Shown piece by piece: positions 3,502-17,288 of a stretch of 20,556 nucleotides of DNA. Numbering within the stretch: position 1 is the first letter of the stretch; each line of letters begins with the position of its first letter. Both the position numbers and the translations under genes were made by a program. The notes beneath the pieces are model-generated. The model was not told the origin of the DNA and searched no databases. It saw nothing but the letters and a program-made list of their open reading frames with translations. The stretch is from Escherichia coli (GTDB taxonomy: Bacteria; Pseudomonadota; Gammaproteobacteria; Enterobacterales; Enterobacteriaceae): assembly GCA_022664555.1 (NCBI GenBank), contig GCA_022664555.1_4839.2, one strand, 5' to 3'.

Positions 3502-3827
3502 AAAAGCCGCGTATTACAGGACACCAACTCTTGGTTCTCTACGGGATAGAGAACTTTGAGAAAGGTCATTACCGTTATGTTGAATGGTACTTGCATCCCA
3601 TATCCTGTACCAATGAGAAGTGCTACACGGTGTGTACGTTCAAGTTATTCACGATTTCTTGTGGTTTCACCTCCGTCAAAGGCAACCCCCGCACTGGGGC
3701 TTCCCTGCTCGCCAAGGGGTTGATCGAACCAGCTGGCTCAATGGTTCATGACGGTTCTTACGTGAACTGGCCGAACGCTGAGGTGACGTTCTATCGCCTG
3801 ACCGAACTCGGTAAATCTTATCTCTGA
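3498..3827 (+). CDS. Hypothetical protein (109 aa), possibly winged-helix-like
   Basis: ATG at 3498 (AAAGGA upstream), ATGA overlap with the preceding stop. The ORF-track start at 3447 looks like an upstream extension. Confidence 0.5.
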   Translation: MKKPRITGHQLLVLYGIENFEKGHYRYVEWYLHPISCTNEKCYTVCTFKLFTISCGFTSVKGNPRTGASLLAKGLIEPAGSMVHDGSYVNWPNAEVTFYRLTELGKSYL

Positions 3828-3897: not shown

Positions 3898-4212
3898 ATG
3901 ACCCCATTAAAAGAAATGTATGAGCGCCTGGCTGAACTACAGGCGAAGGAAAAGCGCTTCTCAGAAGAAGAGTCTGAAATCTCCGAGCTGAACACTTTGA
4001 TCGCCACTCGCGAGAAGTACCTGCAGCGCTACATTAATCACCCACCGCGCATGGTAGACCGCGTCAGCACTATCATGGACCTGGATGAAGTTACTCCTGG
4101 CAAAGAAATCATTGTCAGGGAAGTCCATCAGATGGTCGCCATGGGTCAGATCTTTGGTCGTGCAGACCAAGACGACATGATGTTCCTCCTTGAAAAGAAA
4201 CTGGTGATGTGA
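3898..4212 (+). CDS. Hypothetical protein (104 aa)
   Basis: ATG at 3898 with AAGAGGA 7 nt upstream; stop TGA overlaps the cd start. Confidence 0.55.
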   Translation: MTPLKEMYERLAELQAKEKRFSEEESEISELNTLIATREKYLQRYINHPPRMVDRVSTIMDLDEVTPGKEIIVREVHQMVAMGQIFGRADQDDMMFLLEKKLVM

Positions 4213-4718
4213 TGGCTATCAAACCCCGTATGTTGTTTGCGCATATGCGCTCGGCTCATGCATACGCTCTGTCCAGCTATGCCCAGCGCCTGAAGGTCGG
4301 CTGTGTTATCGTTGACCCGCGTGTTGACCAGCCCCTGTCTATCGGTTGGAACGGGACTGCTCCTGGCGCTCCTAATGTCTGTGAGAAGGAAGTAGACGGT
4401 CAACTGGTATATGTGGGTGTTATCCACGCCTAGGATAATGCTCTGATCAAACTCCCCCAGCACACCGAAGACTGTTGTGGCCTGGTGATGTTTGTCACTC
4501 ATAGTCCATGCCCAGAGTGCACCCGTCGTATTATCGACAGTGGCAAGATCGCTAAAGTGTTCTATGACCGACAATATAGTATCACAGACTGTATTATTGA
4601 AATGCTGGCTGCTGGAATTGAAGTATATCGCATGGTCGATCAGGTTGTTGTAGTCCAGCATTCTGTGAAGAACGGCGAACTGGTATCCACCCCTGTTTTA
4701 GTGAACCCTGACAAATAA
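4212..4718 (+). pseudogene. cd: dCMP deaminase (cd) interrupted by an in-frame amber codon (TAG at 4431-4433) at the catalytic-Glu position
   Basis: Single 168-codon frame. N-part VGCVIVD...SIGWNGTAPG...VIHA, then TAG, then DNALIKL...THSPCPEC. This matches the deaminase zinc motifs H-A-E and PCxxC, with the stop where E is expected. ORF-track fragments are 4209..4433 and 4485..4718, in the same frame. Confidence 0.75.
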
Positions 4719-5351: not shown

Positions 5352-5962
5352 GGTAAGAGCAGTCCATCATCCCGCTCCGTTGGGGCGGGTTTAATCTCCT
5401 TCCGCATCTGTTCTTTCAAGAATCTGACACGCTCGGCATGTCGGCGATCTTGCATCTCCATATCCCGTTTCTTTTTCGACTTCAATTCGAACTGTTTACG
5501 AACATCCGGATCTTCACCTGGAACAAGATGCTCTTCGGTCCAGATAATGAACTTCCAGTTCTTCTTGGCACACAGTTCGCGGGTGGCCTCCCACTTGGCA
5601 GAATTGACCAACCAGGTTCGCATCGCATTGTTGAACGTCGACTCCTTCATGTTCGGAGTCTTCTTCGGCTGCTTGATCTGGTCTTTGGGCTTGATCTCAA
5701 TGAGGGTGACCTGTAGTTCCTCTTGCCCTTCACGGCGCGTCCAGACCTTGAGGTCCATGAAGTAACGATGGGTGCGCCCGTCTACTGGGGAAATGTAAGG
5801 GATTACGGTCTCCTCGTTTTCCCAGAAAATGATCGCAGGATTAGTATCACAAAACTTGAAAGCCACAAGTTCCAAAGAAGATCGAAATACGATTTTGTTT
5901 GGGTTGCCTTTGTACTTTTTAGGATTGACAGGAACATATTTCCCTTGAAGATATTGCGCCAT
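5348..5962 (-). CDS. Hypothetical protein with PD-(D/E)xK-like nuclease motif and lysine-rich C-terminus
   Basis: ATG at 5962 with GGAGGA upstream, overlapping the seg stop (TAATG). Motif ...PYISPVDGRTHRYFMDLKVW... (D ... D-L-K). Confidence 0.5.
   Translation of the reverse strand: MAQYLQGKYVPVNPKKYKGNPNKIVFRSSLELVAFKFCDTNPAIIFWENEETVIPYISPVDGRTHRYFMDLKVWTRREGQEELQVTLIEIKPKDQIKQPKKTPNMKESTFNNAMRTWLVNSAKWEATRELCAKKNWKFIIWTEEHLVPGEDPDVRKQFELKSKKKRDMEMQDRRHAERVRFLKEQMRKEIKPAPTERDDGLLLP
5371..5395. terminator. Possible bidirectional terminator hairpin between convergent genes
   Basis: cccgctcc-gtt-ggggcggg stem-loop followed by TTTAAT. It lies in the last codons of the minus-strand ORF, so the assignment is tentative. 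Confidence 0.3.
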
Positions 5963-6699
5963 TATGCTTTCCTCCAACCTTTATGCTGTAAATTGCGACC
6001 CTTGTTTACGTGGCCCATGGAGCCTTCGCTCAAACCGATTTCTTTACAAAATTTTGCCAGGTTGACAATTGTCACCAACTGCCCTTCTGGGTTGATGAAT
6101 TTGAATTCTCGGGAATTGGCCTCGGATATTCTCTCGCGCCCTTCTTTCGTCACAGCCCCTTTGCAATTAGAGTAATCTACCAACCCCAATTCAACAAGTC
6201 GCTTATTTGAATTTCTTATTTTGTCCCTGGTTTGCTGGTCTACAACACAACCAAATCTTGGGTTATTTTCTCCCGAACGATCTTTTCCAAACCAAAAATT
6301 TCTAGAACCGTTTAGCGCTCTTGAACGATAAATTCTTTCCAGTTCTTCTTTTGGTTTAGAGAGTAATGTGTTCAGAGCTTTGGTAGACGCCTGCTTTCTA
6401 GCCTCTGGGTCTGAATTGATGTGGTCGAAGGATCCACATCCACCCAGCGTCAAATTGTATGTATCTTCCCTTTCTATAAAATCTTTGGTTACTATTCTGG
6501 ATTCTTCTAGGTACATTTGTTCCTGAGTTTCACACTCCAATAAAATATCCTTTCTGAAGTTTTCAACTCCATGTTTCTTGATTGCTCTGGTTATCATAAC
6601 ACCAGAACCCATATAGCCATCATCCGGTTCGCCTTTGTGGGCACCAACATATATCTTACCGTTTAGAAGATTGGTTATCTGGTAGACGAAGTATCTCAT
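5962..6699 (-). CDS. GIY-YIG homing endonuclease (Seg-like)
   Basis: N-terminal YFVYQITNLLNGKIYVGA ... GYMGSG ... E ... N matches the GIY-YIG catalytic module. C-terminal half has NUMOD-like DNA-binding repeats. GC is visibly lower than in the flanks. Confidence 0.8.
   Translation of the reverse strand: MRYFVYQITNLLNGKIYVGAHKGEPDDGYMGSGVMITRAIKKHGVENFRKDILLECETQEQMYLEESRIVTKDFIEREDTYNLTLGGCGSFDHINSDPEARKQASTKALNTLLSKPKEELERIYRSRALNGSRNFWFGKDRSGENNPRFGCVVDQQTRDKIRNSNKRLVELGLVDYSNCKGAVTKEGRERISEANSREFKFINPEGQLVTIVNLAKFCKEIGLSEGSMGHVNKGRNLQHKGWRKA
5962..6699 (-). mobile_element. Free-standing homing endonuclease gene inserted between nuclease and baseplate genes
   Basis: Same ORF as the Seg-like CDS; intergenic placement and compositional difference from neighbours. 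Confidence 0.55.
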
Positions 6700-6749: not shown

Positions 6750-7718
6750 ATGGCCGACTTCAAGAAGACAATCGATAAGATCAAGGTTCTGAACACCAAG
6801 GGATTGTCCCAGGCTCAGAAGCAATTGTCTTATCCCCTGGACGTCACTGGGGGTAAGACCTTAGGACACTATGTCCTATTCAACATCAACCGCATCTCCG
6901 GTTCATCTTATGGCAATACGGCTACTCAGACTATCGAGAACCCAATACAGAACCCTCTGGGGAATACTCCTGTGGTCTATGGGTCCAAGTCTGGTTCCAT
7001 CACCAAATATGCATGGGCGCGTCACGTTCGTTCAAACGAGTCCATCGTCTTGTGTATGCCAGAGTCCATTACAACCAACTATGGTGTTGGCTGGAACGGT
7101 AGTGAGCTGGGGCTGGCTGGAATGGGTGCACAGTTCCTTTCCCGCGCCGCCCAAGACATGACTCAGTTTAAACTGGGTGATGCACTCAACGTCGGGAAGG
7201 AGATGGGGCGATTCGCTGCCACCAAGGCTATCCAATCTGCATCGGAGGCTATCCCGTTCCTGCCGAGCATTAACGCCCATGACACCCTTGAGTTGTTCAC
7301 AGGCACCATGACCAACCCATATGTGGAGATGATCTTCCAGGGTGTTCGCAACCGTGAGATTCCATTTACATTCAAATTCACGCCGCGATCTCAGAAGGAA
7401 GCCAAGATGGTCCGTGAGATCATCCGCATGTTCAAGATGCATATGTACCCAGAGTACAAGTACAACAAGAATTCCAGCGCGTTTTACTTGCATCCTTCAA
7501 CATTCGACATTACGTTCATGGTCAATGGGGAGCGTAACCAGTGGCTACACCGCATCTCCACTTGTGTACTTTCCAACATGTTCGTCAACGAGACGCCGGA
7601 CAGTTCATACGCGGTTCACAAAGATGATGGTATCGTGTCCACGCAGGTTGACATGACCTTCATCGAACTGGAGCCTCTGCATAAAGGGCGCTTTGAAACC
7701 GAAGGCGATAGCTTCTAA
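6750..7718 (+). CDS. Baseplate/tail-tube junction protein with tail-tube fold (gp19-family; gp54/gp48-like by size)
   Basis: 322 aa. C-terminal REIPFTFKFTPRSQKEAKMVREIIRMFKMHMYPE resembles the conserved tube-protein motif. First gene of a + strand structural operon. Confidence 0.6.
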   Translation: MADFKKTIDKIKVLNTKGLSQAQKQLSYPLDVTGGKTLGHYVLFNINRISGSSYGNTATQTIENPIQNPLGNTPVVYGSKSGSITKYAWARHVRSNESIVLCMPESITTNYGVGWNGSELGLAGMGAQFLSRAAQDMTQFKLGDALNVGKEMGRFAATKAIQSASEAIPFLPSINAHDTLELFTGTMTNPYVEMIFQGVRNREIPFTFKFTPRSQKEAKMVREIIRMFKMHMYPEYKYNKNSSAFYLHPSTFDITFMVNGERNQWLHRISTCVLSNMFVNETPDSSYAVHKDDGIVSTQVDMTFIELEPLHKGRFETEGDSF

Positions 7719-7729
7719 GAGAGGATGCC

Positions 7730-8284
7730 ATGAAATATTTTGAGAAGTTTCCACTTGTTTGGCATCAATTGCAAGATGTCAAAGAGAATCATCAGTTGTT
7801 GTTACAGAACTTAACGCGCCGGGTGATGATCTTACAGAAAATTAAGGACATCGAAGGGCTTCTCCTGCCGTATACGATCCAAGAGGGGGAAACCCCAAGG
7901 TCTTTCGCAGAACGCGTTTACGGATCCTTCGAGTTGTTTTGGATACCTTGTCTGATAAACGGCATCATGGACATCAATAAGGACTGGCCAAAACCGGAAC
8001 GTCGTATTGTTGAAGAACTGACTGCAGACTATGGCATCGATGGTATGTGGGATACAGCCTATTATGTAGACCAGTTCAACAATGTGACCGACGCCCGTGC
8101 TATCAAATTTGCATATAACCTAGACCTGGATGAGCCGTCCATAATTGCTAACTATGGTCTGACGGCAGTTTCATATCATGATGATGCAATCAGTAAGAAT
8201 GAAGCCAAACGGAACATCCGAGTACTCGACCCAGATTATGTGTCTTCGTTTGTCAATCAGCTGGAGCAGGAGTTGGCGAAATGA
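7730..8284 (+). CDS. Small baseplate hub-associated protein (gp26/gp28/gp51-like by position)
   Basis: 184 aa; ATG at 7730 with AAGAGAGGA upstream; ATGA-coupled to the next gene. Assignment is by synteny only. Confidence 0.45.
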   Translation: MKYFEKFPLVWHQLQDVKENHQLLLQNLTRRVMILQKIKDIEGLLLPYTIQEGETPRSFAERVYGSFELFWIPCLINGIMDINKDWPKPERRIVEELTADYGIDGMWDTAYYVDQFNNVTDARAIKFAYNLDLDEPSIIANYGLTAVSYHDDAISKNEAKRNIRVLDPDYVSSFVNQLEQELAK

Positions 8285-9669
8285 TCGAAAACAGAGAGAC
8301 CCAAGACGGTATTGTAACACCGTCAACAACATTTGACCTGAAGTATATGGCGATCCTCCCTCATACACCCCAGGGTGGAACACCAACGCCATATGATCTG
8401 ACGGCGTTGTTTGAGGAGTTCAACGTCTTCCAGGATCTGGGTCTTGAAGGGAAGTCATCTCCATCACTTACAGCCAATGTCTTGATAAAAGAAGTGTGTG
8501 ACATTCTTGACACAATGCCTATCTTGGGTGGTGAAGAAGTTGTGGTGTCATTCAAGAGTCCGGCGGCCTCGGAATACCCCACTCTCTCCCTGCGCGTAGC
8601 GCGTGTTGGGCGCGTAGCTGATGAGTCCAACAGCTCGTCCAAGAAAGCATTCTGGTTGCACATGGTGACCACCGATGCCTATAAGGACAGCATGATCCGA
8701 TGCTCCCTCGGTCTTGACGGTTCGTATTCTGACATGGCGAAGGCAATCTTCAATCAGTTGGAGTCGCGCACCAAGTTCGAAGACATCGACCCGTCGTATG
8801 GAATTCAAGAGCGGTTCGCCACCCCGCTCTGGCCTGTGCTGCGATCTATTGATTATATGGCGAGCCGTTCTTATGACGAATTGTTCATGCCATTCGTGTT
8901 CTATGAAGACTTCAATGGCTATCACTTCAAGAGCCTGACGACGTTGTTCAACCAGGGTAGCCAGTCATTGACAGCAGAAGAGAAGCAGGAACTAGCTCAG
9001 CAGAACAAGTTGTTCCGTGATCCTCAGGACGCGCCGCTCATGCAGGATAACAACTTCAACTCTGAGCGCTTTATGCGCACGATCATCAAGGCAGAGAAGA
9101 AGCTGGCGCGTGACCAGTTCATGGCAAACTACCGCGATGTCCTGGCGGTGAACGAGCGCGTCTACGACTTTGAGACCAAGACAGTCACCCCAACACAGCG
9201 CATCTATACTGAGTGGTTTGCAGAGACGGCTCACCTTGATCCGTTCCCGATGTTCTCAGATGAATTCAATCGTCAGAACGTCCGTTACATTGAAGCCCAG
9301 CCGGATGGAGCGGAGCAGATTGATTATGCTCGTCGTGTTATCAACTTCAGTCTTGCCAGCACTGTGATGCGCGTGTTGCTCGTTGGTGATAACCGCCTGA
9401 ACGTCGGTCAGGTGTTCTACGTCGAAGACCAGTCCAACCGTCCTAAGAAGAACGAAAACCTGGCAGAGTTAAGTAAGCTATCGACAGGCCACTATATCGT
9501 GACCAAAGTGCGTCACAAGATTTCCCGCCTAACCAAAGATTATCAGTGCATCGCTGAGATTGCCAAGGACAGTTTGCTGGAGCAGGTGCTTCCACCTCAG
9601 ACCAATCAGACAACTGCTTCCACCACTACTCCTCAGGCGATTGAGAAAGGCCAAGCACAGAAGGTTTAA
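8281..9669 (+). CDS. Baseplate hub subunit, gp27-like (tentative)
   Basis: 462 aa. Segments PLWPVLRSIDYMASRSYDELFMPFVFYEDFNGYHFKSLTTLFNQ and GDNRLNVGQVFYVEDQSN resemble remembered gp27 hub motifs. Immediately upstream of the tape-measure gene. Confidence 0.55.
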   Translation: MIENRETQDGIVTPSTTFDLKYMAILPHTPQGGTPTPYDLTALFEEFNVFQDLGLEGKSSPSLTANVLIKEVCDILDTMPILGGEEVVVSFKSPAASEYPTLSLRVARVGRVADESNSSSKKAFWLHMVTTDAYKDSMIRCSLGLDGSYSDMAKAIFNQLESRTKFEDIDPSYGIQERFATPLWPVLRSIDYMASRSYDELFMPFVFYEDFNGYHFKSLTTLFNQGSQSLTAEEKQELAQQNKLFRDPQDAPLMQDNNFNSERFMRTIIKAEKKLARDQFMANYRDVLAVNERVYDFETKTVTPTQRIYTEWFAETAHLDPFPMFSDEFNRQNVRYIEAQPDGAEQIDYARRVINFSLASTVMRVLLVGDNRLNVGQVFYVEDQSNRPKKNENLAELSKLSTGHYIVTKVRHKISRLTKDYQCIAEIAKDSLLEQVLPPQTNQTTASTTTPQAIEKGQAQKV

Positions 9670-9680
9670 CGAGGTGACCC

Positions 9681-11627
9681 ATGGCACAGGAAGCAACGAA
9701 CAATGATGTTGTCAAAGTTCTAGACAAGATCAAGGCGGAGATGATGCAGCGCAAACAACTCCGCGCTCAGAATGAAACCAACAAACAGCTTGACCGGATG
9801 AACAAGAATCTGGCCAAGCTGGAATCTGCCACTAAACAGGGCACCAAGGCCGAGTCCAAGCCATTTGAAATCCGTATCCCGACAGTCAATGAGATCGTCA
9901 TGGGATTCGCTCGCATGTCTCCGATCTTCACCCGCGACTTCAGCGTATGGATGAAGGATACTGTCGATGTGGGTAACGAAGGTAATCGGGAACTGGAGAA
10001 TATCGCAGGCAAGATTGACCGCCTCGGTGAGATCACCCGCATGCCAACAGATGACACGTCCCTGGAGTATCTTAACCTGATCTCAGACCAGCTGAAGTCT
10101 GCCAATGATGACACCCTCAAGCGCATGGACGAGCAGAGTGTGTCTCTGGTCCGCGTGGGATCATTCTTGAACATGATCGACGGAGTGATGATCGAGGTTC
10201 GTGACAATGTTGCTGAACTGAAAAAGAACTCCGATGACACCCTTACTCGCTTGTCTAGCATTGAAAACAAGATTGGACGCACGGGCGGTCATATCGTTGG
10301 AGTGTTGACACGCATCTTTGATGAAGACCAGAAGTGGCGTGAGAAGGACGAGATGCGCCGTGGGGAAACAGACAAAGAAACGGGTGGTCATCCTCAGGCG
10401 GGTTCTGTTATACCCAAAGACGATGACCAGAAAGACGATTCCTCCGGTATCGGGGCTGCTGTGGCGGCCATGCTTGGCCTGAATGCACTGAAGGGCTTCT
10501 TGCTCAAGCCGTTCAAGATCATCGGTGGTGTTGTCGGGACTTTCCTCGGCATGTTCTCCAAGCTGGGAGAAGGTATCACCAAACTTCTGGGTCCATTTGG
10601 GAAGGTGTTCAAGTTCCTGAAAGTCGGCCCACTGGCTCTCCTGTCTATGATCTGGGACTTCGGTAAAGGCTTCATTGATGCGAAGGAGATCCTAGGTAAA
10701 GGTGCTGTCACGATAGTTGACCGAGTACGGGCGGGGATATCAGAACTGGTTGGTGGATTTGGTGATCTATTTGACTGGGTGTCCAAGATCTTTGGCTTTG
10801 ATACCGAGGCGGGTGAAACCCTGCGCAAATACACCCTCATGATCACAGAGGCTCCCGCTCGTTGGCTGAATGGTATTATCGACTGGATTAGCAACGACTT
10901 GTTTGCAGGGATCGGGAGAGACACGTCTCTTACGGATATCCCTGGCAAGTTAGCAGACAACCTACAGTCCGAGTTGATAAAGCTGGTAGACTGGATCACA
11001 GGGGGTATCAGTAGTGTGATCGACGAGGGCATGGGTGTGGCCAACAAGGTCATTGACGATATCAAGAAGGGATTTGCCGAAAATGTGAAGAAACCTTTCT
11101 TCAACATGCTGAACACAATCACCAATGCGATGTTCGATATCGTTGACAAGTTCGTCAGCATCATCCCTGACGCTCTGGGTGGACAGGCTGCGAAGCAGAA
11201 GATGGATGAGGCTCGCCAGTCTATGCTGATTGACACTGATGAGAATCCATCTCCTAATGTGACAGAGACCCAGCAGCCACAGACGCCAGCACAACCGAAC
11301 ATCGATCCACAAACGCTGACTCCAATACCTTCTGGTGCGTCTTCGGATGACAAGAATATGACTAATGACCGCACCTCTCAGCTGAAAGCTGCGTATGGTT
11401 CTATCGGGGGTGGTACTCTGGGCGGGGCCATGCCATCACAAGGGAGGGCGCTGTCTAATATTGAGCAAGTACAAGGCGGCTATTCACCGCCTCCGGCCAG
11501 CGTCGTGATGCCAGTACAGCAGAATGTGGATGCTTCTAAGAGGATCAACACGACCAATAACTTCAACAGCTCATATCTTGAGCCTGAGAACAAAACAGAT
11601 AATTCCCGCATCCTGTGGGAATGGTAA
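9681..11627 (+). CDS. Tail tape measure / baseplate hub protein, gp29-like
   Basis: 648 aa. N-terminal coiled-coil-like region, a long Gly-rich hydrophobic segment (GIGAAVAAMLGLNALKGFLLKPFKIIGGVVGTFLGMF...) and a Ser/Pro-rich C-terminus. ATG at 9681 with GAGGTGA upstream. Confidence 0.6.
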   Translation: MAQEATNNDVVKVLDKIKAEMMQRKQLRAQNETNKQLDRMNKNLAKLESATKQGTKAESKPFEIRIPTVNEIVMGFARMSPIFTRDFSVWMKDTVDVGNEGNRELENIAGKIDRLGEITRMPTDDTSLEYLNLISDQLKSANDDTLKRMDEQSVSLVRVGSFLNMIDGVMIEVRDNVAELKKNSDDTLTRLSSIENKIGRTGGHIVGVLTRIFDEDQKWREKDEMRRGETDKETGGHPQAGSVIPKDDDQKDDSSGIGAAVAAMLGLNALKGFLLKPFKIIGGVVGTFLGMFSKLGEGITKLLGPFGKVFKFLKVGPLALLSMIWDFGKGFIDAKEILGKGAVTIVDRVRAGISELVGGFGDLFDWVSKIFGFDTEAGETLRKYTLMITEAPARWLNGIIDWISNDLFAGIGRDTSLTDIPGKLADNLQSELIKLVDWITGGISSVIDEGMGVANKVIDDIKKGFAENVKKPFFNMLNTITNAMFDIVDKFVSIIPDALGGQAAKQKMDEARQSMLIDTDENPSPNVTETQQPQTPAQPNIDPQTLTPIPSGASSDDKNMTNDRTSQLKAAYGSIGGGTLGGAMPSQGRALSNIEQVQGGYSPPPASVVMPVQQNVDASKRINTTNNFNSSYLEPENKTDNSRILWEW

Positions 11628-12287
11628 TCAGATTCCGTGGGCTTGTATTAGCTCACGGAGTCTCTGTTTTGAATATGTTGTATCCTCATCCGGAACCACA
11701 GCATTCGTCTTCCTGAGCAAGAACGCCTCCGAGTTCCAATAGATGTCATCACGCAGAATCGTATCGTACAGATGAATGAAACCAACGATCTTGTTCAGAC
11801 CGACAAGGAACCAAATCGGGAACTTCTTGATGATGATGTCTGTTAGCAACGGCGGATGACGTGTACCCGTCCCCTTGATGTACTCAATGAAGGTGCAGTT
11901 GCGCTCCCTTATGGCAGGGATCATCTCCCGCTCGAACTCCTCTAGGAAGTTATATGTGAATTTCTCTTACAGCTTACGGTATTCATCATAATTGGCCTGA
12001 GCCTGGCGTGTAAGCAATGTCGTCACCCAGGTCTTGGGTGATTTGATGAAGTTGGCAATGATGTAGTTCTCTACCACTTCACCCTGTGATGACTCGAACC
12101 GACGGGCAAGGCGAGCAAACTGTTTGCACACGGCCTCCTTCGCCAAGAACGTCTCGAACTTGTAATTCATCGGCCCATACAAGCTGTAATCGAAGTCCTT
12201 AGTGGTGAAGTGCAGCTTGATCGCCATGAATACACAGTAAACGTTGAACGCCCGCTCGAACTCCATCTTCTGCCACTCTGTTAGCAT
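11628..12287 (-). pseudogene. 59: gp59-like helicase loader interrupted by an in-frame ochre codon (TAA at 11967-11969)
   Basis: ORFs 11967..12287 and 11628..11924 are in the same frame, separated by one TAA and 14 sense codons. N-part VYCVFMAIKLHFTTKDFDY...NFIKSPKTWV and C-part IYWNSEAFLLRK resemble gp59 N- and C-domains. Combined length is about 219 aa. Confidence 0.5.
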
Positions 12288-12988: not shown

Positions 12989-14419
12989 TCACCCATTATC
13001 CTTCTCCAACAGGAATGCGATGTTTTCGATGTACGCTTTCTGTATCGCATAGACTTCATCCAGTGTGTTGGCCACTTTCTTGTCAATGCGGACTTCTACA
13101 AGGCGAGGTAGGAACAAAGACTTCATCGCATCATCTGTCTTATCCTGTACGCCATTGGAGAGCACTGCGGCGATCTTGCCAATGTAGTCGCCCTGGTTCT
13201 CCCACATATGGCGTCTCAGCTCATCTGAGATCCCTGATACGCCAACAACAAGCAGGCTGTCGGAAGTTTTACAAATCAGTGAGCCAAAAGTCTTGGCGTG
13301 TTTACCCTTCTTGTCGGCCTCGTTGAAGCCCACGATTTCAAGGTCACACTCAACCTCCATCTTCAGCTTCAGACCTTCAGAAGAAGTACCATCTTCCCAA
13401 GGCATGTCGGCGGCCTTACATATCGTACCTTCTTCTTTGCGAGCCAGCGCGTCTTTGAAGTGGTCGACGGCTTCGGCAAATGAGTGAACAACACGAGTTT
13501 CCTGAACCTGAACCAGACCGTCGTCTTCACAAAACATTTGCATGATCATGTCGAAGCGGGTTTCATACGGGGTGTCCACGCGCTGGGCGTTGAACCAGTT
13601 GTCGTACGGGACAACATCCCACACCCGGTAGATCACCCGATAACGATCTTCTAGGGGTTCTCCTGTCTGAATCACGCTGTTGAGTTTACCGTTACCGACA
13701 GCACGAGGCAGGATGGTATTCGACTTGAGGTCAACAACGAGAAGTTCACCATGGAACACACTCTCACCAATCCCCGCATCGTAGATGATGTCCTTGAACA
13801 CCAGTGACAGGTTGTCAACCGAACCGCCTGCGATAAGGGAACCGGATCGAGAGCGAATCTCAGGCTCTTTATTGTACCGACATATGATGTTGGCGAACAT
13901 GCCGTCTGACTTCAGCTGGCTGTAGACAACACGCTTGAAGTCCATCTTCTTCAGCAGGTCAATCGTCATGTTGTCATAACGATGATACGGAAGAATGTTG
14001 ATCAGGCGTCCAGTGCCTCCGGCGGCGTTGAATGCAGCGTTGATGCCCTTCTCAGCGATACCCGCCTTGATATCACGGTCTAGGATCATCTGAATGAGTT
14101 CGTGGTATTGGGGATCCATCTTCAGGGCGACAGAGGCCAACAGGGCATCAGCCTTTTGGCCACCGACAAGGCGCTGCGCCATCTGGTCGAGGACGCCATA
14201 GACTTCGCTAATGTCATCAGTCTTCTCACGGACGAGCATGCGAGGGTACGCGCTGAGCTTCAACTCAGTCCGATAGAACGACGTCATTGGGTCATAGACA
14301 TACTGCAGGAAGTCTGCCAAGTCTGGGTTGTTCTTGAATGCTTCGGTCAGCACGGCTTTCTTCGCATTGCTGCCTTTGGTTTCGCGAAGTCGGTGGACTG
14401 TTTCAAGGATAGGGATCAT
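12989..14419 (-). CDS. 30: ATP-dependent DNA ligase (T4 gp30-like)
   Basis: 476 aa. Adenylation motif KSDG (YSQLKSDGMF), HGELLVVD, EGTICK and C-terminal OB-like region. ATG at 14419 with GGAG upstream. Confidence 0.9.
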   Translation of the reverse strand: MIPILETVHRLRETKGSNAKKAVLTEAFKNNPDLADFLQYVYDPMTSFYRTELKLSAYPRMLVREKTDDISEVYGVLDQMAQRLVGGQKADALLASVALKMDPQYHELIQMILDRDIKAGIAEKGINAAFNAAGGTGRLINILPYHRYDNMTIDLLKKMDFKRVVYSQLKSDGMFANIICRYNKEPEIRSRSGSLIAGGSVDNLSLVFKDIIYDAGIGESVFHGELLVVDLKSNTILPRAVGNGKLNSVIQTGEPLEDRYRVIYRVWDVVPYDNWFNAQRVDTPYETRFDMIMQMFCEDDGLVQVQETRVVHSFAEAVDHFKDALARKEEGTICKAADMPWEDGTSSEGLKLKMEVECDLEIVGFNEADKKGKHAKTFGSLICKTSDSLLVVGVSGISDELRRHMWENQGDYIGKIAAVLSNGVQDKTDDAMKSLFLPRLVEVRIDKKVANTLDEVYAIQKAYIENIAFLLEKDNG

Positions 14420-14532: not shown

Positions 14533-14874
14533 TTATTTCTTCGGGGGTTCAATTGAGGTGAAAGAATCCTTCCAACTCTTGAATTTTTCAACCAGGGCTT
14601 CTTTACCCAGCTTGTCATTTGACACGCTGTGAATATAGGCAAATGCTCCATAGCCGGATCCTGGCATAGCCTTGCAGATGCGCAGACTGACCAAAGAATC
14701 TCCTACGGAAACAAGATAGTGGTCACGACGATTGTTCGGGGCATAATGGTTGTCGTGAAACTTGTCAATAACAACACAGTTCTGAGGTTCGACGTCAATC
14801 GGTAGCCCGTTGGCTTCGGATCCGCCGCGCCCAAGTACGCAGCCTGGGAATAATGTTTCTAAGAGTGTAGTCAT
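14533..14874 (-). CDS. Hypothetical protein (113 aa)
   Basis: ATG at 14874 with AAGGA 7 nt upstream; preceded by a ~250-nt non-coding region. Confidence 0.55.
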   Translation of the reverse strand: MTTLLETLFPGCVLGRGGSEANGLPIDVEPQNCVVIDKFHDNHYAPNNRRDHYLVSVGDSLVSLRICKAMPGSGYGAFAYIHSVSNDKLGKEALVEKFKSWKDSFTSIEPPKK

Positions 14875-15127
14875 GGACTGTTCCTTCTTTAAGTTCCCAA
14901 GAATTAAATGGGTGAATAGTTTATTGAATTATTTGTTGTGAAACCCAGAGCCTTGTGGACTTCTTCACGATTTTAATTTCGGCCTGAGCCTCTGTGCGAT
15001 TAATCTAGCGCTTGTGATGTCGGGAGAGGGCTTTGTAAACAAGCCTTGGCGTCAATGGCATCGATTAGACAACGGATCTCAGCGCATCAGAGGCTTGCCC
15101 AACAGCCAGTTGAAATACTTGCGCATG

Positions 15128-15340
15128 TCACTTCCTCATCAGTGAGAGTAGGTTGACCGTAGCCGGGCGCGCATCAGGGGCGTAGAAGACGTCCTGAGAG
15201 TGCCTCTTACAGCACGGGCAATCCTTCGTGGCGATTACACAGGGAGCCTTGCTTACGGCAAATCCGGCGGCTTCGGCTTCCTTCACAGTGGTGAATGGCA
15301 GGTAAGCACTTGTGCCCTGCCCTCCGCATGAACATTCCAT
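15128..15340 (-). CDS. Small cysteine-rich protein (CSCGG ... C ... CPCC)
   Basis: ATG at 15340 with GGAGGA 6 nt upstream; 70 aa with 7 Cys. Confidence 0.5.
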   Translation of the reverse strand: MECSCGGQGTSAYLPFTTVKEAEAAGFAVSKAPCVIATKDCPCCKRHSQDVFYAPDARPATVNLLSLMRK

Positions 15341-15540
15341 CAGAAATCCTCCAACGTGATACCATTGACTTCCGACATTAACCCAAGGCGCTTAACCCGA
15401 CGAGCGTGGCGGTGCTCCTTCTTGATGCTTTTAGAGCGTTGTGCTTTGGAACGTCGATTCTTGTAAGTGTCAGACGGATACTTGTCATGTCCTGGACAAC
15501 AAGATCCTGGCTCGTATACATACATGATTTCACGTTTCAT
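15340..15540 (-). CDS. Small basic protein (66 aa)
   Basis: ATG at 15540 directly after the upstream stop (TGAATG); Lys/Arg-rich with a CCPGH motif. Confidence 0.45.
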   Translation of the reverse strand: MKREIMYVYEPGSCCPGHDKYPSDTYKNRRSKAQRSKSIKKEHRHARRVKRLGLMSEVNGITLEDF

Positions 15541-15657
15541 TCATTTCTTCCTCTTAAAGGGGACGACCAGGGCTATGATGAGAAGCATAGCTGTAATCAT
15601 CCCACATGCTATCAGACCGAAGGCGAACGACTTCAGAACAAACTCAATCAAATTCAT
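15541..15657 (-). CDS. Very small hydrophobic membrane peptide (38 aa)
   Basis: Hand-translated: MNLIEFVLKSFAFGLIACGMITAMLLIIALVVPFKRKK. ATG overlaps the stop of the 368-aa gene (ATGA). Below the ORF-track size cutoff. Confidence 0.35.
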   Translation of the reverse strand: MNLIEFVLKSFAFGLIACGMITAMLLIIALVVPFKRKK

Positions 15658-16760
15658 AATTTCCTCAATTTGGCTCTGGTGACCTGAGTTTGTTTAACGC
15701 CGTTGTACTCAGTCAGTTCTTTGACACGACCACGGATGATCATATCGCCCTGCAAGAACTCTGTATCCATATAAGAGGTCTTCCAGGTAATTGTATTGCC
15801 TTCTGCTGTTTTGAAAGTAAACAGGTAGCTATCACCATATTCATTGGAGAAGAGGAAGGTGCGCTTGTCGAACCTGACTTGCACTTCCAGCATTTCACCG
15901 ACTTCACCCACCCATTTGTTCTCCGCCTTGCGGTCAGTACGAGGACGATGGATGTAATCGTAATACTTCTTGGCACCCCAGCGGACTGTGTTGTTATCCT
16001 TGATGAGGTGATAGCCGGGTTCACACATGCGTTTCAGGCGAACATTGAACTCATTAGATTCGGACAGCGCACTGATGAAGAGCTTCATATGGTACATTTC
16101 CGACTCGGCATCTTCACGGTATTCGTGTGCCTTGTTTACGAAATACTCTTCATCGGAACCTGCTTTTGGTTTCTGGTGAGACCGGACATAGCCCAGGACT
16201 TTGTCAAACAGTTCAGACTTGATATCCACGCCTGCCAACATCACCTGGAAGCATGCGCGCAGGAAACTGTGGGTGTCGACGAAGCGCTCATTTTGGACGC
16301 GATATATACCCTCTGGGTCGTCCTCGTCTGGCATGAAGAACTCTTGGATTTCCAGATAGTAAGACATAATCGCGTCAAGCGATTTCTGATGAGGTACATA
16401 ATGATGCATACAGGTGCTACCAATCAGCATCTGGGTGTGCGTTTCCTCATTTTCAATCACATACGTGTTCTTGCGACGGATGACTAGATTGCAATGCTGA
16501 CACCAAGAGACGTTCTCTGTCTCGAAGCGACGGATGAAGTCAGGATTGATGTTGTCAGACAGGCGGTTAAGAATAACTTTTGGATATTCGTGATTGAACT
16601 GACCGATGATTTTCCAGCCACCATAAGAGACGGGGCGGTCAATGCCTTCGCCTTCGAGAGTAACAGGTTTCCACCAGTGAGTAAGGATCTCACCAGTGAA
16701 GTCGCGGGTGTGGGTTTTGAAGGGTTCACCATAAGTCACAGTCGGAAACGGAACACCCAA
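15654..16760 (-). CDS. Hypothetical protein (up to 368 aa) with Cys/His cluster and OB-fold-like C-terminus; start codon uncertain
   Basis: Long ORF with no ATG in the first ~117 codons (the track start is TTG at 16760). Cluster WCQHCN...STCMHHY. C-terminal beta-rich segment VGEVGEMLEVQVRFDKRTFLF...ITWKTS. Confidence 0.55.
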   Translation of the reverse strand: MGVPFPTVTYGEPFKTHTRDFTGEILTHWWKPVTLEGEGIDRPVSYGGWKIIGQFNHEYPKVILNRLSDNINPDFIRRFETENVSWCQHCNLVIRRKNTYVIENEETHTQMLIGSTCMHHYVPHQKSLDAIMSYYLEIQEFFMPDEDDPEGIYRVQNERFVDTHSFLRACFQVMLAGVDIKSELFDKVLGYVRSHQKPKAGSDEEYFVNKAHEYREDAESEMYHMKLFISALSESNEFNVRLKRMCEPGYHLIKDNNTVRWGAKKYYDYIHRPRTDRKAENKWVGEVGEMLEVQVRFDKRTFLFSNEYGDSYLFTFKTAEGNTITWKTSYMDTEFLQGDMIIRGRVKELTEYNGVKQTQVTRAKLRKL

Positions 16761-16900
16761 CCTTTCGGCAGTGCGCTAGAGCTTCTTCAGTCTCTAAACT
16801 ACAAAAAATTCATTGTATAACGGAATATTGAAAGTTTTTAAGTTCATTTCCAGACTCATGATGTAGTTGTAACTCTTCAATACAGATTAAATATTAGGCG

Positions 16901-16928
16901 ATTATTTCTTGAAAGTAAAGTTATTGAA
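16901..16928 (-). promoter_or_regulatory. Candidate sigma70-like promoter for the 368-aa gene operon
   Basis: Minus strand: TTCAAT (16923-16928), 16-nt spacer, AATAAT (16901-16906); immediately downstream of the terminator hairpin. Confidence 0.3.
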
Positions 16929-16933
16929 GTTAA

Positions 16934-16956
16934 AAGCCCAGTACTTGACTGGGCTT
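16934..16956 (-). terminator. Rho-independent terminator after the 104-aa gene
   Basis: 9-bp stem aagcccagt / actgggctt with loop acttg. On the minus strand it is followed by TTTTAACTTC. Lies 18 nt downstream of the stop codon at 16974-16976. Confidence 0.55.
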
Positions 16957-16973
16957 CTTGGTGTTCGATTGAC

Positions 16974-17288
16974 TTATTCGCCACTGACATTCGGGTCTCG
17001 ATCGGGCTTGGCGTTCGGGAATAGAGACTCGTATAGGTCTTGATATTTCTCGCTCGTTTCGATCGTCTTATGGTAAGTTCCATTGGCGCGGTCGGATACA
17101 ACCTTGCGCAGGTCGCTGGCCTTGATGCCCGTCTCTTTCGCCAGCTCGGCCAGAGTCTCAGTAATGAAAGTCTGTTCCGACTTGATGCGGACCTGGGCGG
17201 CACGACAGTTTTCAATTGCACCTATCAGCTTGCGACGGGATTCAGGATCAGATGGTAGTACATAAAAGCCGATTTGTTCTACAGACAT
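16974..17288 (-). CDS. Hypothetical protein (104 aa)
   Basis: ATG at 17288 with AAGAGGAA upstream. Confidence 0.55.
   Translation of the reverse strand: MSVEQIGFYVLPSDPESRRKLIGAIENCRAAQVRIKSEQTFITETLAELAKETGIKASDLRKVVSDRANGTYHKTIETSEKYQDLYESLFPNAKPDRDPNVSGE

What the first reader, a model, noticed from the sequence alone, without database searches (positions are those of the whole stretch)
15654..16760. Large unknown protein in the replication block with no ATG start and a Cys/His cluster
The long minus-strand ORF sits where T4-like genomes often carry replication genes (near 41 and ligase). It lacks primase Toprim motifs and the ligase KxDG motif. It has a CxxC...C-x-H-H cluster and an OB-fold-like C-terminus. 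No ATG occurs in its first ~117 codons; the only near-5' candidates are TTG (16760, with GAAAGG directly adjacent) or GTG. It is either initiated at a non-ATG codon or 5'-damaged.
Basis: partly seen in the sequence, partly recalled or inferred. Interest (0 to 1): 0.5.

Follow-up and report, generated by a model that had tools for sequence, protein, structure and literature searches.

The report
Conserved phage gene broken by ambers
The "large protein with no ATG start" is the last 368 codons of a conserved, normally ATG-started 397-codon phage gene of unknown function, cut off from its start by two stop codons in a short, oddly mutated stretch, so it is a damaged or mis-sequenced gene and not an unusual way of starting translation.

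Summary
The ORF (15654-16760, minus strand, 368 aa, TTG) is real. Its missing ATG is a by-product of ORF calling. The window comes from an Agtrevirus-like Ackermannviridae phage. In more than 400 phage genomes the orthologous gene is a 397-aa, ATG-started "hypothetical protein" (phrog_2319, E 1e-145). That ATG is present here at 16847. Two in-frame TAG codons follow it at 16796 and 16778; both are GAG (Glu) in every relative. The "TTG start" is simply Leu30.

The two stops lie in a 77-nt tract (16778-16854) holding 14 substitutions found only in this genome. All 14 are transversions, mostly G>T on the coding strand. Four similar tracts occur elsewhere in the window. One puts TAG on the catalytic Glu of dCMP deaminase; separately, a private G>T puts TAA in the gp59-like helicase loader. 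TAG ends two normal genes here, and no suppressor tRNA was found, so recoding is unlikely. The tracts are either errors in the sequence record or very recent, unselected damage-type mutations. Sequence alone cannot tell which.

The protein family has an invariant Cys/His zinc knuckle, a helical middle and a C-terminal RPA/SSB-like OB fold. It has no conserved catalytic residues, so it is probably a nucleic-acid-binding replication or recombination accessory protein. Interest is low.

The parts
15654..16847 (-). Full orthologous coding region of the phrog_2319 gene (397 codons plus stop). In this sequence it is interrupted by two amber codons.
   Evidence: Codon-by-codon mapping of the fGh-Ecl02 CDS onto the window gives 97.2% identity, no gaps and two new stops. 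Orthologous CDSs are 1194 nt in all relatives.
15654..16760 (-). The flagged 368-codon ORF, which is the part of the gene downstream of the second amber codon. Its TTG 'start' is the Leu30 codon.
   Evidence: The phrog_2319 match covers profile positions 30-398 of 399.
16845..16847 (-). Conserved ATG start codon of the gene. A second in-frame ATG lies at 16859-16857.
   Evidence: Alignment with three relatives. The annotated starts of orthologues map here.
16854..16857 (-). Shine-Dalgarno element. It is GAGG in relatives and GAGT here, weakened by the first substitution of the tract.
   Evidence: Read from alignment A1 and the upstream sequences listed.
16794..16796 (-). Amber codon 1 (codon 18). 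It is GAG (Glu) in all relatives.
16776..16778 (-). Amber codon 2 (codon 24). It is GAG (Glu) in the close relatives.
16778..16854 (.). Tract of 14 substitutions private to this genome, all transversions. On the gene strand they are G>T x9, C>A x3 and A>T x2. The tract runs from the ribosome-binding site to codon 24.
   Evidence: No phage record shares the tract; the best match over 161 nt is 91.3%. The exact 44-mer is absent from viral contigs.
16410..16502 (-). Codons for the family-invariant zinc knuckle C-x-H-C ... R ... G-x-x-C (ORF residues C87, H89, C90, C117; C116, H118, C119, C146 in full-length numbering).
   Evidence: Invariant in 164 diverse family members and in the alignment of 20 sequences.
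15660..15893 (-). C-terminal OB-fold domain (full-length residues 319-396).
16934..16956 (-). Hairpin in the upstream intergenic region, between the dsbA-like regulator gene and this gene. It probably acts as a terminator ahead of the gene's own promoter.
   Evidence: Stem of 9 pairs found by the scan, which reports it on the + strand. The LIMEstone1 record annotates a terminator and -35/-10 signals within the region matching window 15548-16989.
15541..15657 (-). Downstream 38-codon membrane-protein gene. Its ATG overlaps this gene's TGA (ATGA), so premature termination upstream could reduce its translation through loss of coupling.
   Evidence: Read from the sequence. Annotated as a putative membrane protein in relatives.

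Best explanation
The flagged ORF is not a gene that starts at a non-ATG codon. It is the downstream 368 codons of a conserved 397-codon gene (family phrog_2319; Ag3 gp050; KVP40.0369-like) that normally starts at the ATG at 16847 behind a GAGG ribosome-binding site. In this sequence two Glu codons (GAG, codons 18 and 24) read TAG. An ORF finder therefore restarts at the first permitted codon after the second stop, which is the internal Leu30 TTG.

As written, ribosomes would make a 17-residue peptide and stop. At most a trace of an N-terminally truncated protein could arise by re-initiation. That product would lack strand beta1 and the long helix alpha1 of the N-terminal domain and would probably not fold. 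The gene is therefore either inactive in this phage or intact in reality and mis-recorded.

Both stops belong to a 77-nt tract of 14 private transversions, one of five such tracts in the window. I judge these about equally likely to be errors in the sequence record or very recent unselected damage-type mutations.

Shown: the gene's identity, the conserved ATG, the two stops, the tract and its mutation spectrum. Inferred: the loss of function and the origin of the tract. Also inferred is the protein's normal role: a zinc-knuckle plus OB-fold nucleic-acid (probably ssDNA) binding accessory protein of the replication/recombination module. My confidence in that role is about 0.35.
For: Identity. 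phrog_2319 matches at E 1.2e-145, starting at profile position 30. There are 22 close homologues of 394-406 aa, all with an extra conserved N-terminal segment MxxKTxxIPIxNxxxxxERLxKLxRTAEKLG. tblastn finds the gene in 406 phage records, 377 of them near full length.

Start and stops. The same frame read upstream gives M..MNLKTFNIPLYNEFFVV*RLKKL*RTAERLGVPF. The DNA alignment shows GAG in relatives where the window has TAG, twice, and TTG/CTG = Leu at the supposed start. Codon mapping reports the two new stops and no gaps.

Not ordinary divergence. All 14 private substitutions in 16778-16854 are transversions, whereas about 64% of window-wide differences are transitions. P(14 of 14 transversions) is about 4e-7, and the Poisson probability of 14 or more private changes in 77 nt is about 3e-11.

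No recoding. TAG is the normal stop of gp41 and of the neighbouring 109-aa gene. There is no tRNA in the window. The closest relative encodes only tRNA-Met(CAT) and tRNA-Tyr(GTA).

The N-terminal segment matters. In the AF2 model residues 4-9 are strand beta1 and residues 10-30 a helix, with pLDDT 81-86, and distant family members align from profile positions 1-7 onward.

Protein role. The OB fold is supported. C116, C119, C146 and R391 are invariant; H118, R125, W355, K376 and T387 are nearly invariant; no conserved acidic residues were found. Linkage with ligase and helicase loader is kept in a Vibrio phage at 22% identity.
Confidence: 0.9

Rival explanations
1. Origin A. The two amber codons and the other transversion tracts are errors in the sequence record, for example low-coverage or low-quality substitution miscalls kept in the consensus. 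In that case the real phage has an intact, ATG-started gene.
For: Five short tracts (3580-3660, 4411-4447, 13531-13561, 14862-14907, 16778-16854) hold 46 transversions against 2 transitions. All are private to this genome and none is shared with any of 50,697 phage records. They ignore codon position. They put a stop on the catalytic Glu of dCMP deaminase and five non-conservative changes into DNA ligase; a further private G>T puts a stop in the gp59-like loader. Meanwhile the remaining parts of these genes keep intact frames and mostly synonymous differences. Other deposited relatives also show split genes typical of sequencing errors, such as A221.
Against: The tracts contain no indels or Ns. 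The one specific Illumina signature I could test, a miscalled base equal to the preceding one or two bases (PMC3141275), is not enriched. The purine>T changes sit on the coding strand in all four clear tracts, which a sequencing artefact does not predict. That pattern could still be chance, with a probability of roughly 0.06-0.12.
Confidence: 0.45
2. Origin B. The tracts are real, very recent clustered mutations caused by localised damage to one DNA strand, with an A inserted opposite lost or damaged purines. They have inactivated three dispensable genes, including this one, so this copy is a fresh pseudogene.
For: The spectrum is GC>TA 71%, AT>TA 21%, AT>CG 0% and transitions 4%. From established knowledge, that is what the 'A-rule' bypass of apurinic sites or oxidised G produces. 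Each clear tract is strand-coordinated, with the mutated purines on the non-template strand. The gene appears dispensable, because another Agtrevirus assembly (Logan SRR25010974) carries an 11-nt frameshifting deletion in it. In T4, cd and gene 59 are non-essential (own knowledge). No tract falls in the baseplate/tape-measure block 6750-11627.
Against: A density of 14 changes in 77 nt, with 9 of about 20 Gs hit, is far above known polymerase error rates unless nearly every site was damaged. One tract lies in DNA ligase, which is probably important. No precedent for such mutation showers in phages was found in the literature searches.
Confidence: 0.35
3. The ORF is expressed as annotated, as a 368-aa (or about 361-aa) protein initiated at TTG 16760 or GTG 16739. 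This could be by design or by re-initiation after the upstream mini-ORF terminates.
For: The TTG lies 15 nt after the second TAG and is preceded by the purine-rich GAAAGG. Bacterial ribosomes can re-initiate close to a stop codon (own knowledge).
Against: GAAAGG abuts the TTG with zero spacing, which is unfavourable for a Shine-Dalgarno element. TTG is the Leu30 codon and reads CTG in Ag3. All 29 other genes mapped in the window start with ATG. Every family member carries the N-terminal beta1-alpha1 segment, which is part of the folded N-domain.
Confidence: 0.07
4. The amber codons are read through, by a phage or host suppressor tRNA or by reassignment of TAG, so the full-length protein is made.
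For: All three in-frame TAGs in the window replace Glu GAG codons. The closest relative encodes a tRNA-Tyr(GTA), which a single anticodon change would turn into an amber suppressor. Many laboratory E. coli strains carry supE (own knowledge).
Against: TAG terminates two ordinary genes in the window. A TAA also interrupts the helicase loader and could not be rescued by an amber suppressor. GAG>TAG is simply the stop that a G>T-biased process creates. No tRNA is present in the window and no CUA tRNA in the relative.
Confidence: 0.04

Closest known systems
phrog_2319 / Shigella phage Ag3 gp050 (YP_003358537) / KVP40.0369-type conserved hypothetical protein
   Same: The match is full length apart from the first 29 residues. 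The window's ORF is 91% identical to the nearest cluster representative and 97% identical in DNA to E. coli Agtrevirus-like phages. It has the same neighbours: gp41 helicase, a dsbA-like regulator, small membrane proteins and ligase.
   Different: This copy has two in-frame amber codons and a weakened ribosome-binding site. Every other copy examined is intact, except one with an 11-nt deletion.
Classical amber (nonsense) mutants of phage genes, such as T4 am mutants
   Same: A sense codon is converted to TAG early in a gene, and the product would depend on a suppressor host.
   Different: Here there are two ambers six codons apart inside a cluster of 14 transversions, with further nonsense codons in two other genes. 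This is not the single transition-type change (CAG or TGG to TAG) that is typical of chemically induced amber mutants (own knowledge).
OB-fold ssDNA-binding proteins with a zinc site (RPA70, archaeal RPA, MCM N-terminal domain, Mcm10, T4 gp32)
   Different: There is no sequence similarity. The zinc knuckle lies in a separate N-terminal domain that has no clear structural relative. The phage already encodes a gp32-type SSB elsewhere. DNA binding has not been tested.
RecT-like ssDNA annealing protein (the annotation given to the orthologue in Salmonella phage vB_CECAV_050)
   Same: Only the general expectation of ssDNA binding in a recombination/replication context is shared.
Clustered strand-coordinated mutation showers (kataegis) on damaged single-stranded DNA
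   Same: The tracts are short, with many substitutions of one class on one strand.
   Different: Known examples are eukaryotic and dominated by APOBEC C>T/C>G changes. Here the changes are purine>T, and they may not be biological at all.

Membership tests
phrog_2319 (Ackermannviridae / KVP40-type conserved hypothetical protein) | Full-length match to the family profile | tested here: met
   E 1.2e-145, profile positions 30-398 of 399 for the called ORF. Positions 1-29 are encoded upstream in the same frame.
phrog_2319 | Invariant zinc knuckle C-x-H-C ... R ... G-x-x-C | tested here: met
   Present as CQHC (ORF residues 87-90), R96 and C117. Invariant in 164 family members.
phrog_2319 | C-terminal OB fold with W...K...QT..R | tested here: met
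phrog_2319 | Uninterrupted ATG-initiated reading frame of about 380-420 codons | tested here: not met
   Two in-frame TAGs at codons 18 and 24. It is a member by descent but not an intact member.
Gene with a genuine non-ATG (TTG/GTG) start | Start codon conserved as a start in orthologues, with a properly spaced ribosome-binding site | tested here: not met
   The TTG is the internal Leu30 codon (CTG in Ag3). GAAAGG has zero spacing. Orthologues start 29 codons upstream at ATG.
TAG stop-codon reassignment or suppression | TAG not used as a terminator, and a suppressor tRNA present | tested here: not met
   Two genes end in TAG. No tRNA is present in the window. No CUA tRNA is present in the closest relative. 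The rest of this phage's genome could not be examined.
RecT/Red-beta single-strand annealing proteins | RecT/Red-beta/Rad52-type fold or a Pfam RecT match | tested here: not met
DnaG/T7-type primase | Toprim and primase catalytic domains | tested here: not met
   No Pfam hit. The phage's primase is a separate gene elsewhere in the relative's genome.
ATP-dependent DNA ligase | Nucleotidyltransferase domain with KxDG | tested here: not met
   No Pfam hit for this ORF. The ligase is the neighbouring gene 12989-14419.
HNH / His-Me finger nuclease (considered because of a beta-beta-alpha element with FNHEY...N...N followed by CxxC) | Catalytic His and Asn/His conserved across the family | tested here: not met
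   H86 is only 77% conserved, and N94 and N112 are not conserved among 164 members. No HNH Pfam hit.
OB-fold ssDNA-binding proteins (RPA/SSB-like) | OB-fold domain | tested here: met
OB-fold ssDNA-binding proteins (RPA/SSB-like) | Binding of single-stranded DNA | not testable with these tools
   This needs EMSA or fluorescence anisotropy with purified protein.

The most novel reading that the evidence does not exclude
The five transversion-only tracts may be real. In that reading, localised, strand-coordinated purine>T hypermutation of the non-template strand, a kataegis-like mutation shower in a phage genome, has just knocked out three accessory DNA-metabolism genes (phrog_2319, dCMP deaminase, gp59-like loader) in a viable Agtrevirus. 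Possible causes are depurination or oxidation of exposed ssDNA, or a host DNA-damaging defence, followed by translesion synthesis. This would also show that the widespread phrog_2319 gene is dispensable.
Probability: 0.2. Interest if true: 0.6.

Novelty: already known. Interest (0 to 1): 0.22.

Why it matters
This matters mainly for annotation. The ORF should be annotated as an interrupted copy or pseudogene of a conserved gene, or corrected after re-sequencing. It should not be recorded as a TTG-initiated protein, and the same applies to the split dCMP deaminase and helicase-loader genes in this window.

Two secondary points follow. First, phrog_2319 is a very large uncharacterised phage family: about 8,300 cluster representatives (50% identity) scoring E<=0.001, present in the Ackermannviridae genera sampled (Kuttervirus, Agtrevirus and relatives) and in KVP40-like phages. 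It has a clear zinc-knuckle plus OB-fold architecture, which makes it a reasonable target for biochemical study. Second, if the transversion tracts proved real, they would be an unusual example of clustered, strand-biased mutagenesis in a phage.

Tried and rejected
1. Locating the source genome. The exact 44-mer spanning both TAGs is absent from viral contigs. Exact-protein look-ups of the ligase and of the ORF found nothing. The best public relatives are about 97% identical.

2. TAG recoding or suppression. Rejected on stop-codon usage and tRNA scans.

3. Illumina dephasing as the source of the tracts. The test that a miscall equals the preceding one or two bases (PMC3141275) showed no enrichment in any tract or read direction.

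4. Templated (quasi-palindrome or repeat) mutagenesis. No inverted or direct repeat nearby could have templated the new sequence.

5. Import of the tracts by recombination from another phage. No phage record carries any of the tracts.

6. HNH/His-Me nuclease idea for the N-domain. The putative catalytic residues are not conserved.

7. The RecT-like annotation. Not supported.

8. Searches that gave no functional lead. Pfam, NCBIfam and PDB sequence searches gave no hits. The BFVD fold search returned only uncharacterised proteins. afdb50 was unavailable. Literature searches for the PHROG and for amber mutants in Ackermannviridae found nothing useful.

9. Wider genomic-context survey of distant family members. 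The diverse alignment had no stretch usable for scanning, and single distant queries gave 0-2 loci. Context therefore rests on three annotated phages.

Full report
WHAT IS THERE. The window comes from an Ackermannviridae phage of the Agtrevirus type. Its DNA is 96.6-97% identical over more than 90% of its length to E. coli and Enterobacter phages LHE287, YX22, A221 and fGh-Ecl02, and about 92% identical to Shigella phage Ag3. The genome itself is not in the phage collection. The flagged ORF is real: 15654..16760 on the minus strand, 368 codons, with TTG as the first permitted codon. It matches PHROG family 2319 (function unknown) at E 1.2e-145. The match begins at profile position 30 of 399, so about 29 N-terminal residues are missing from the called ORF. 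It has no Pfam domain.

THE MISSING START. Orthologues in every relative examined are 1194-nt, ATG-initiated CDSs. Reading the same frame further upstream in the window gives ...IMSLEMNLKTFNIPLYNEFFVV*RLKKL*RTAERLGVPFPT.... The orthologous ATG is therefore present at 16847. Another in-frame ATG lies at 16859. Two in-frame TAG codons at 16796-16794 (codon 18) and 16778-16776 (codon 24) separate these starts from the called ORF. Alignment with three relatives shows GAG (Glu) at both positions in all of them. It also shows that the supposed TTG start is the internal Leu30 codon, which is TTG in close relatives and CTG in Ag3. Mapping the fGh-Ecl02 CDS onto the window codon by codon gives 97.2% identity, no gaps and exactly these two new stops.

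WHY THE STOPS ARE THERE. Both stops lie in a 77-nt tract (16778-16854) that carries 14 differences from all nine closest relatives. All 14 are transversions. On the gene strand they are G>T x9, C>A x3 and A>T x2. Across the window about 64% of differences are transitions. The chance of 14 of 14 transversions is about 4e-7, and 14 private changes in 77 nt has a Poisson probability of about 3e-11. The first change also turns the GAGG ribosome-binding site into GAGT. No record among 50,697 phage genomes shares the tract, and the exact sequence is absent from the viral contig collection.

The tract is not unique in the window. An objective clustering of window-private transversions finds five tracts with almost no transitions: 3580-3660 (15 transversions, 1 transition), 4411-4447 (5, 0), 13531-13561 in the ligase (6, 1), 14862-14907 (6, 0) and 16778-16854 (14, 0). 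The naturally divergent stretches look different. Examples are the stretch next to a homing-endonuclease insertion at 5816-5945 and the one in uvsX. There, transitions and transversions are mixed and the changes tend to be spaced three bases apart. The tracts are also unique to this genome.

One tract creates another stop: TAG replaces the catalytic Glu of the H-A-E motif of dCMP deaminase. Outside the five tracts, one of a few scattered private G>T changes at 11943-11967 turns TAC into TAA at codon 107 of the gp59-like helicase loader, splitting it into ORFs of 106 and 98 aa. Pooled over these regions, the spectrum is GC>TA 71%, AT>TA 21%, GC>CG 6%, AT>CG 0% and transitions 4%. In the four clear tracts the purine>T changes are on the coding strand.

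ORIGIN OF THE TRACTS. I could not settle this. Several observations favour an error in the record. The changes ignore codon position and hit a catalytic residue. They cause five non-conservative changes in the ligase. The remaining parts of the affected genes are intact and differ from relatives mostly synonymously. Other observations favour real, recent mutation. The spectrum is what is expected when A is inserted opposite lost or oxidised purines (established knowledge). The changes are strand-coordinated. There are no indels or Ns. The genes carrying stops are plausibly dispensable: another Agtrevirus assembly has an 11-nt frameshifting deletion in this same gene, and cd and gene 59 are non-essential in T4 (own knowledge).

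One specific artefact model was tested. In Illumina sequence-specific dephasing, miscalled bases copy the preceding one or two bases (PMC3141275). That signature is not enriched here. Templated mutagenesis from a nearby repeat is also not supported. I put the record-error reading at about 0.45, real mutation at about 0.35, and the remainder on other or unknown causes.

RECODING AND RE-INITIATION. TAG is the ordinary terminator of the gp41 helicase gene and of the adjacent 109-aa gene. The window has no tRNA. The closest relative, scanned almost completely, encodes only tRNA-Met(CAT) and tRNA-Tyr(GTA). A TAA is among the new stops. Reassignment or phage-encoded suppression is therefore unlikely, although a supE host would allow some read-through. 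Re-initiation at TTG 16760 is conceivable, but GAAAGG abuts it with no spacer. The product would also lack residues 1-29, which form strand beta1 and most of helix alpha1 of the N-terminal domain in the model (pLDDT 81-86) and are present throughout the family.

WHAT THE PROTEIN IS. The family is large. A profile search of 1.84 billion representatives finds 8,329 proteins at E<=1e-3, nearly all 370-430 aa and aligned end to end. In sequenced phages it occurs in the Ackermannviridae genera sampled (Kuttervirus, Agtrevirus and relatives), in KVP40-like and other Vibrio and Aeromonas myoviruses, and in a Streptomyces phage. It is almost always annotated as hypothetical. There is no Pfam, NCBIfam or PDB sequence match.

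Across 164 diverse members the invariant residues are C116, C119, C146 and R391. H118, R125, G143, W355, K376 and T387 are 96-99% conserved. No acidic residue is conserved. This pattern fits a Cys3(His) zinc knuckle plus a basic/aromatic OB surface, which suggests a binding protein and not an enzyme. A tentative HNH-like reading of the FNHEY element fails on conservation. The 'RecT-like' label in one GenBank record has no support.

The gene's neighbours are gp41 helicase, a dsbA-like regulator, ligase and the helicase loader. Linkage to ligase and loader is retained in Vibrio phage K382 at 22% identity, but not in KVP40-like phages or in Streptomyces phage Zuko. My best guess, at about 0.35 confidence, is an ssDNA- or fork-binding accessory factor of replication, recombination or repair.

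VERDICT. The gene family is already known as a conserved hypothetical family. The only unusual element is the set of transversion-only tracts, which may well be sequence errors. Interest is low (0.22). The most novel reading still open is real strand-coordinated hypermutation showers in a phage, which I give a probability of about 0.2.

Noticed in passing
window 4212-4718 (+), stop at 4431-4433: The dCMP deaminase gene is interrupted by TAG exactly at the catalytic Glu of the H-A-E zinc-site motif (VIHA*DN...PCPEC). The stop lies inside a 5-substitution transversion-only tract (4411-4447). ORF calling splits the gene into 4209-4433 and 4485-4718.
   Followed up: yes
window 11628-12287 (-), stop at 11967-11969: The gp59-like DNA helicase loader is interrupted by TAC>TAA at codon 107, leaving ORFs of 106 aa and 98 aa. 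The change is one of a few private G>T/A>T changes at 11943-11967.
   Followed up: yes
window 3580-3660, 4411-4447, 13531-13561, 14862-14907, 16778-16854: Five short tracts private to this genome hold 46 transversions and 2 transitions, mostly GC>TA and AT>TA, with the purine>T changes on the coding strand in the four clear cases. The ligase tract changes five residues (ERRFDIIQQLFDE becomes ETRFDMIMQMFCE). They are either sequence errors or clustered damage-type mutations. No other phage record shares them.
   Followed up: partly
window 5962-6699 (-), and 5816-5945: A GIY-YIG/NUMOD3 (SegE-like) homing endonuclease gene sits between gp4 (head completion) and gp48. It is absent from the nine closest relatives. 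The adjacent 5' end of gp4 is unusually divergent, with mixed transitions and transversions, which looks like a co-conversion tract.
   Followed up: partly
L007 3001-4183 (Logan SRR25010974 contig 188, another Agtrevirus): The same phrog_2319 gene carries an 11-nt deletion after codon 185 and is called as two ORFs (207 aa and 195 aa). This suggests the gene can be lost without killing the phage.
   Followed up: partly
window 15340-15540 (-): A 66-aa gene (phrog_5428) lies between the 38-aa membrane-protein gene and the 70-aa gene. It is present here, in fGh-Ecl02 and in the Logan contig, but absent from LHE287, YX22, CECAV_050, Ag3 and others, so it is a presence/absence polymorphism.
   Followed up: no
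window 15654-15657 (-): The stop codon of the phrog_2319 gene overlaps the start of the downstream 38-aa membrane-protein gene (ATGA). Premature termination upstream could have polar effects on the small genes that follow.
   Followed up: no
PQ306799.1 (Salmonella phage vB_CECAV_050) cecavS50_042: The orthologue is annotated 'RecT-like ssDNA annealing protein'. Neither the sequence profiles nor the structure searches here support that name.
   Followed up: yes
L018 230-306 and 561-644 (Escherichia phage LHE287): The closest relative encodes only two tRNAs, Met(CAT) and Tyr(GTA). A single anticodon change in the tRNA-Tyr would make a supF-type amber suppressor. The corresponding region of the window's phage is not available.
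   Followed up: no
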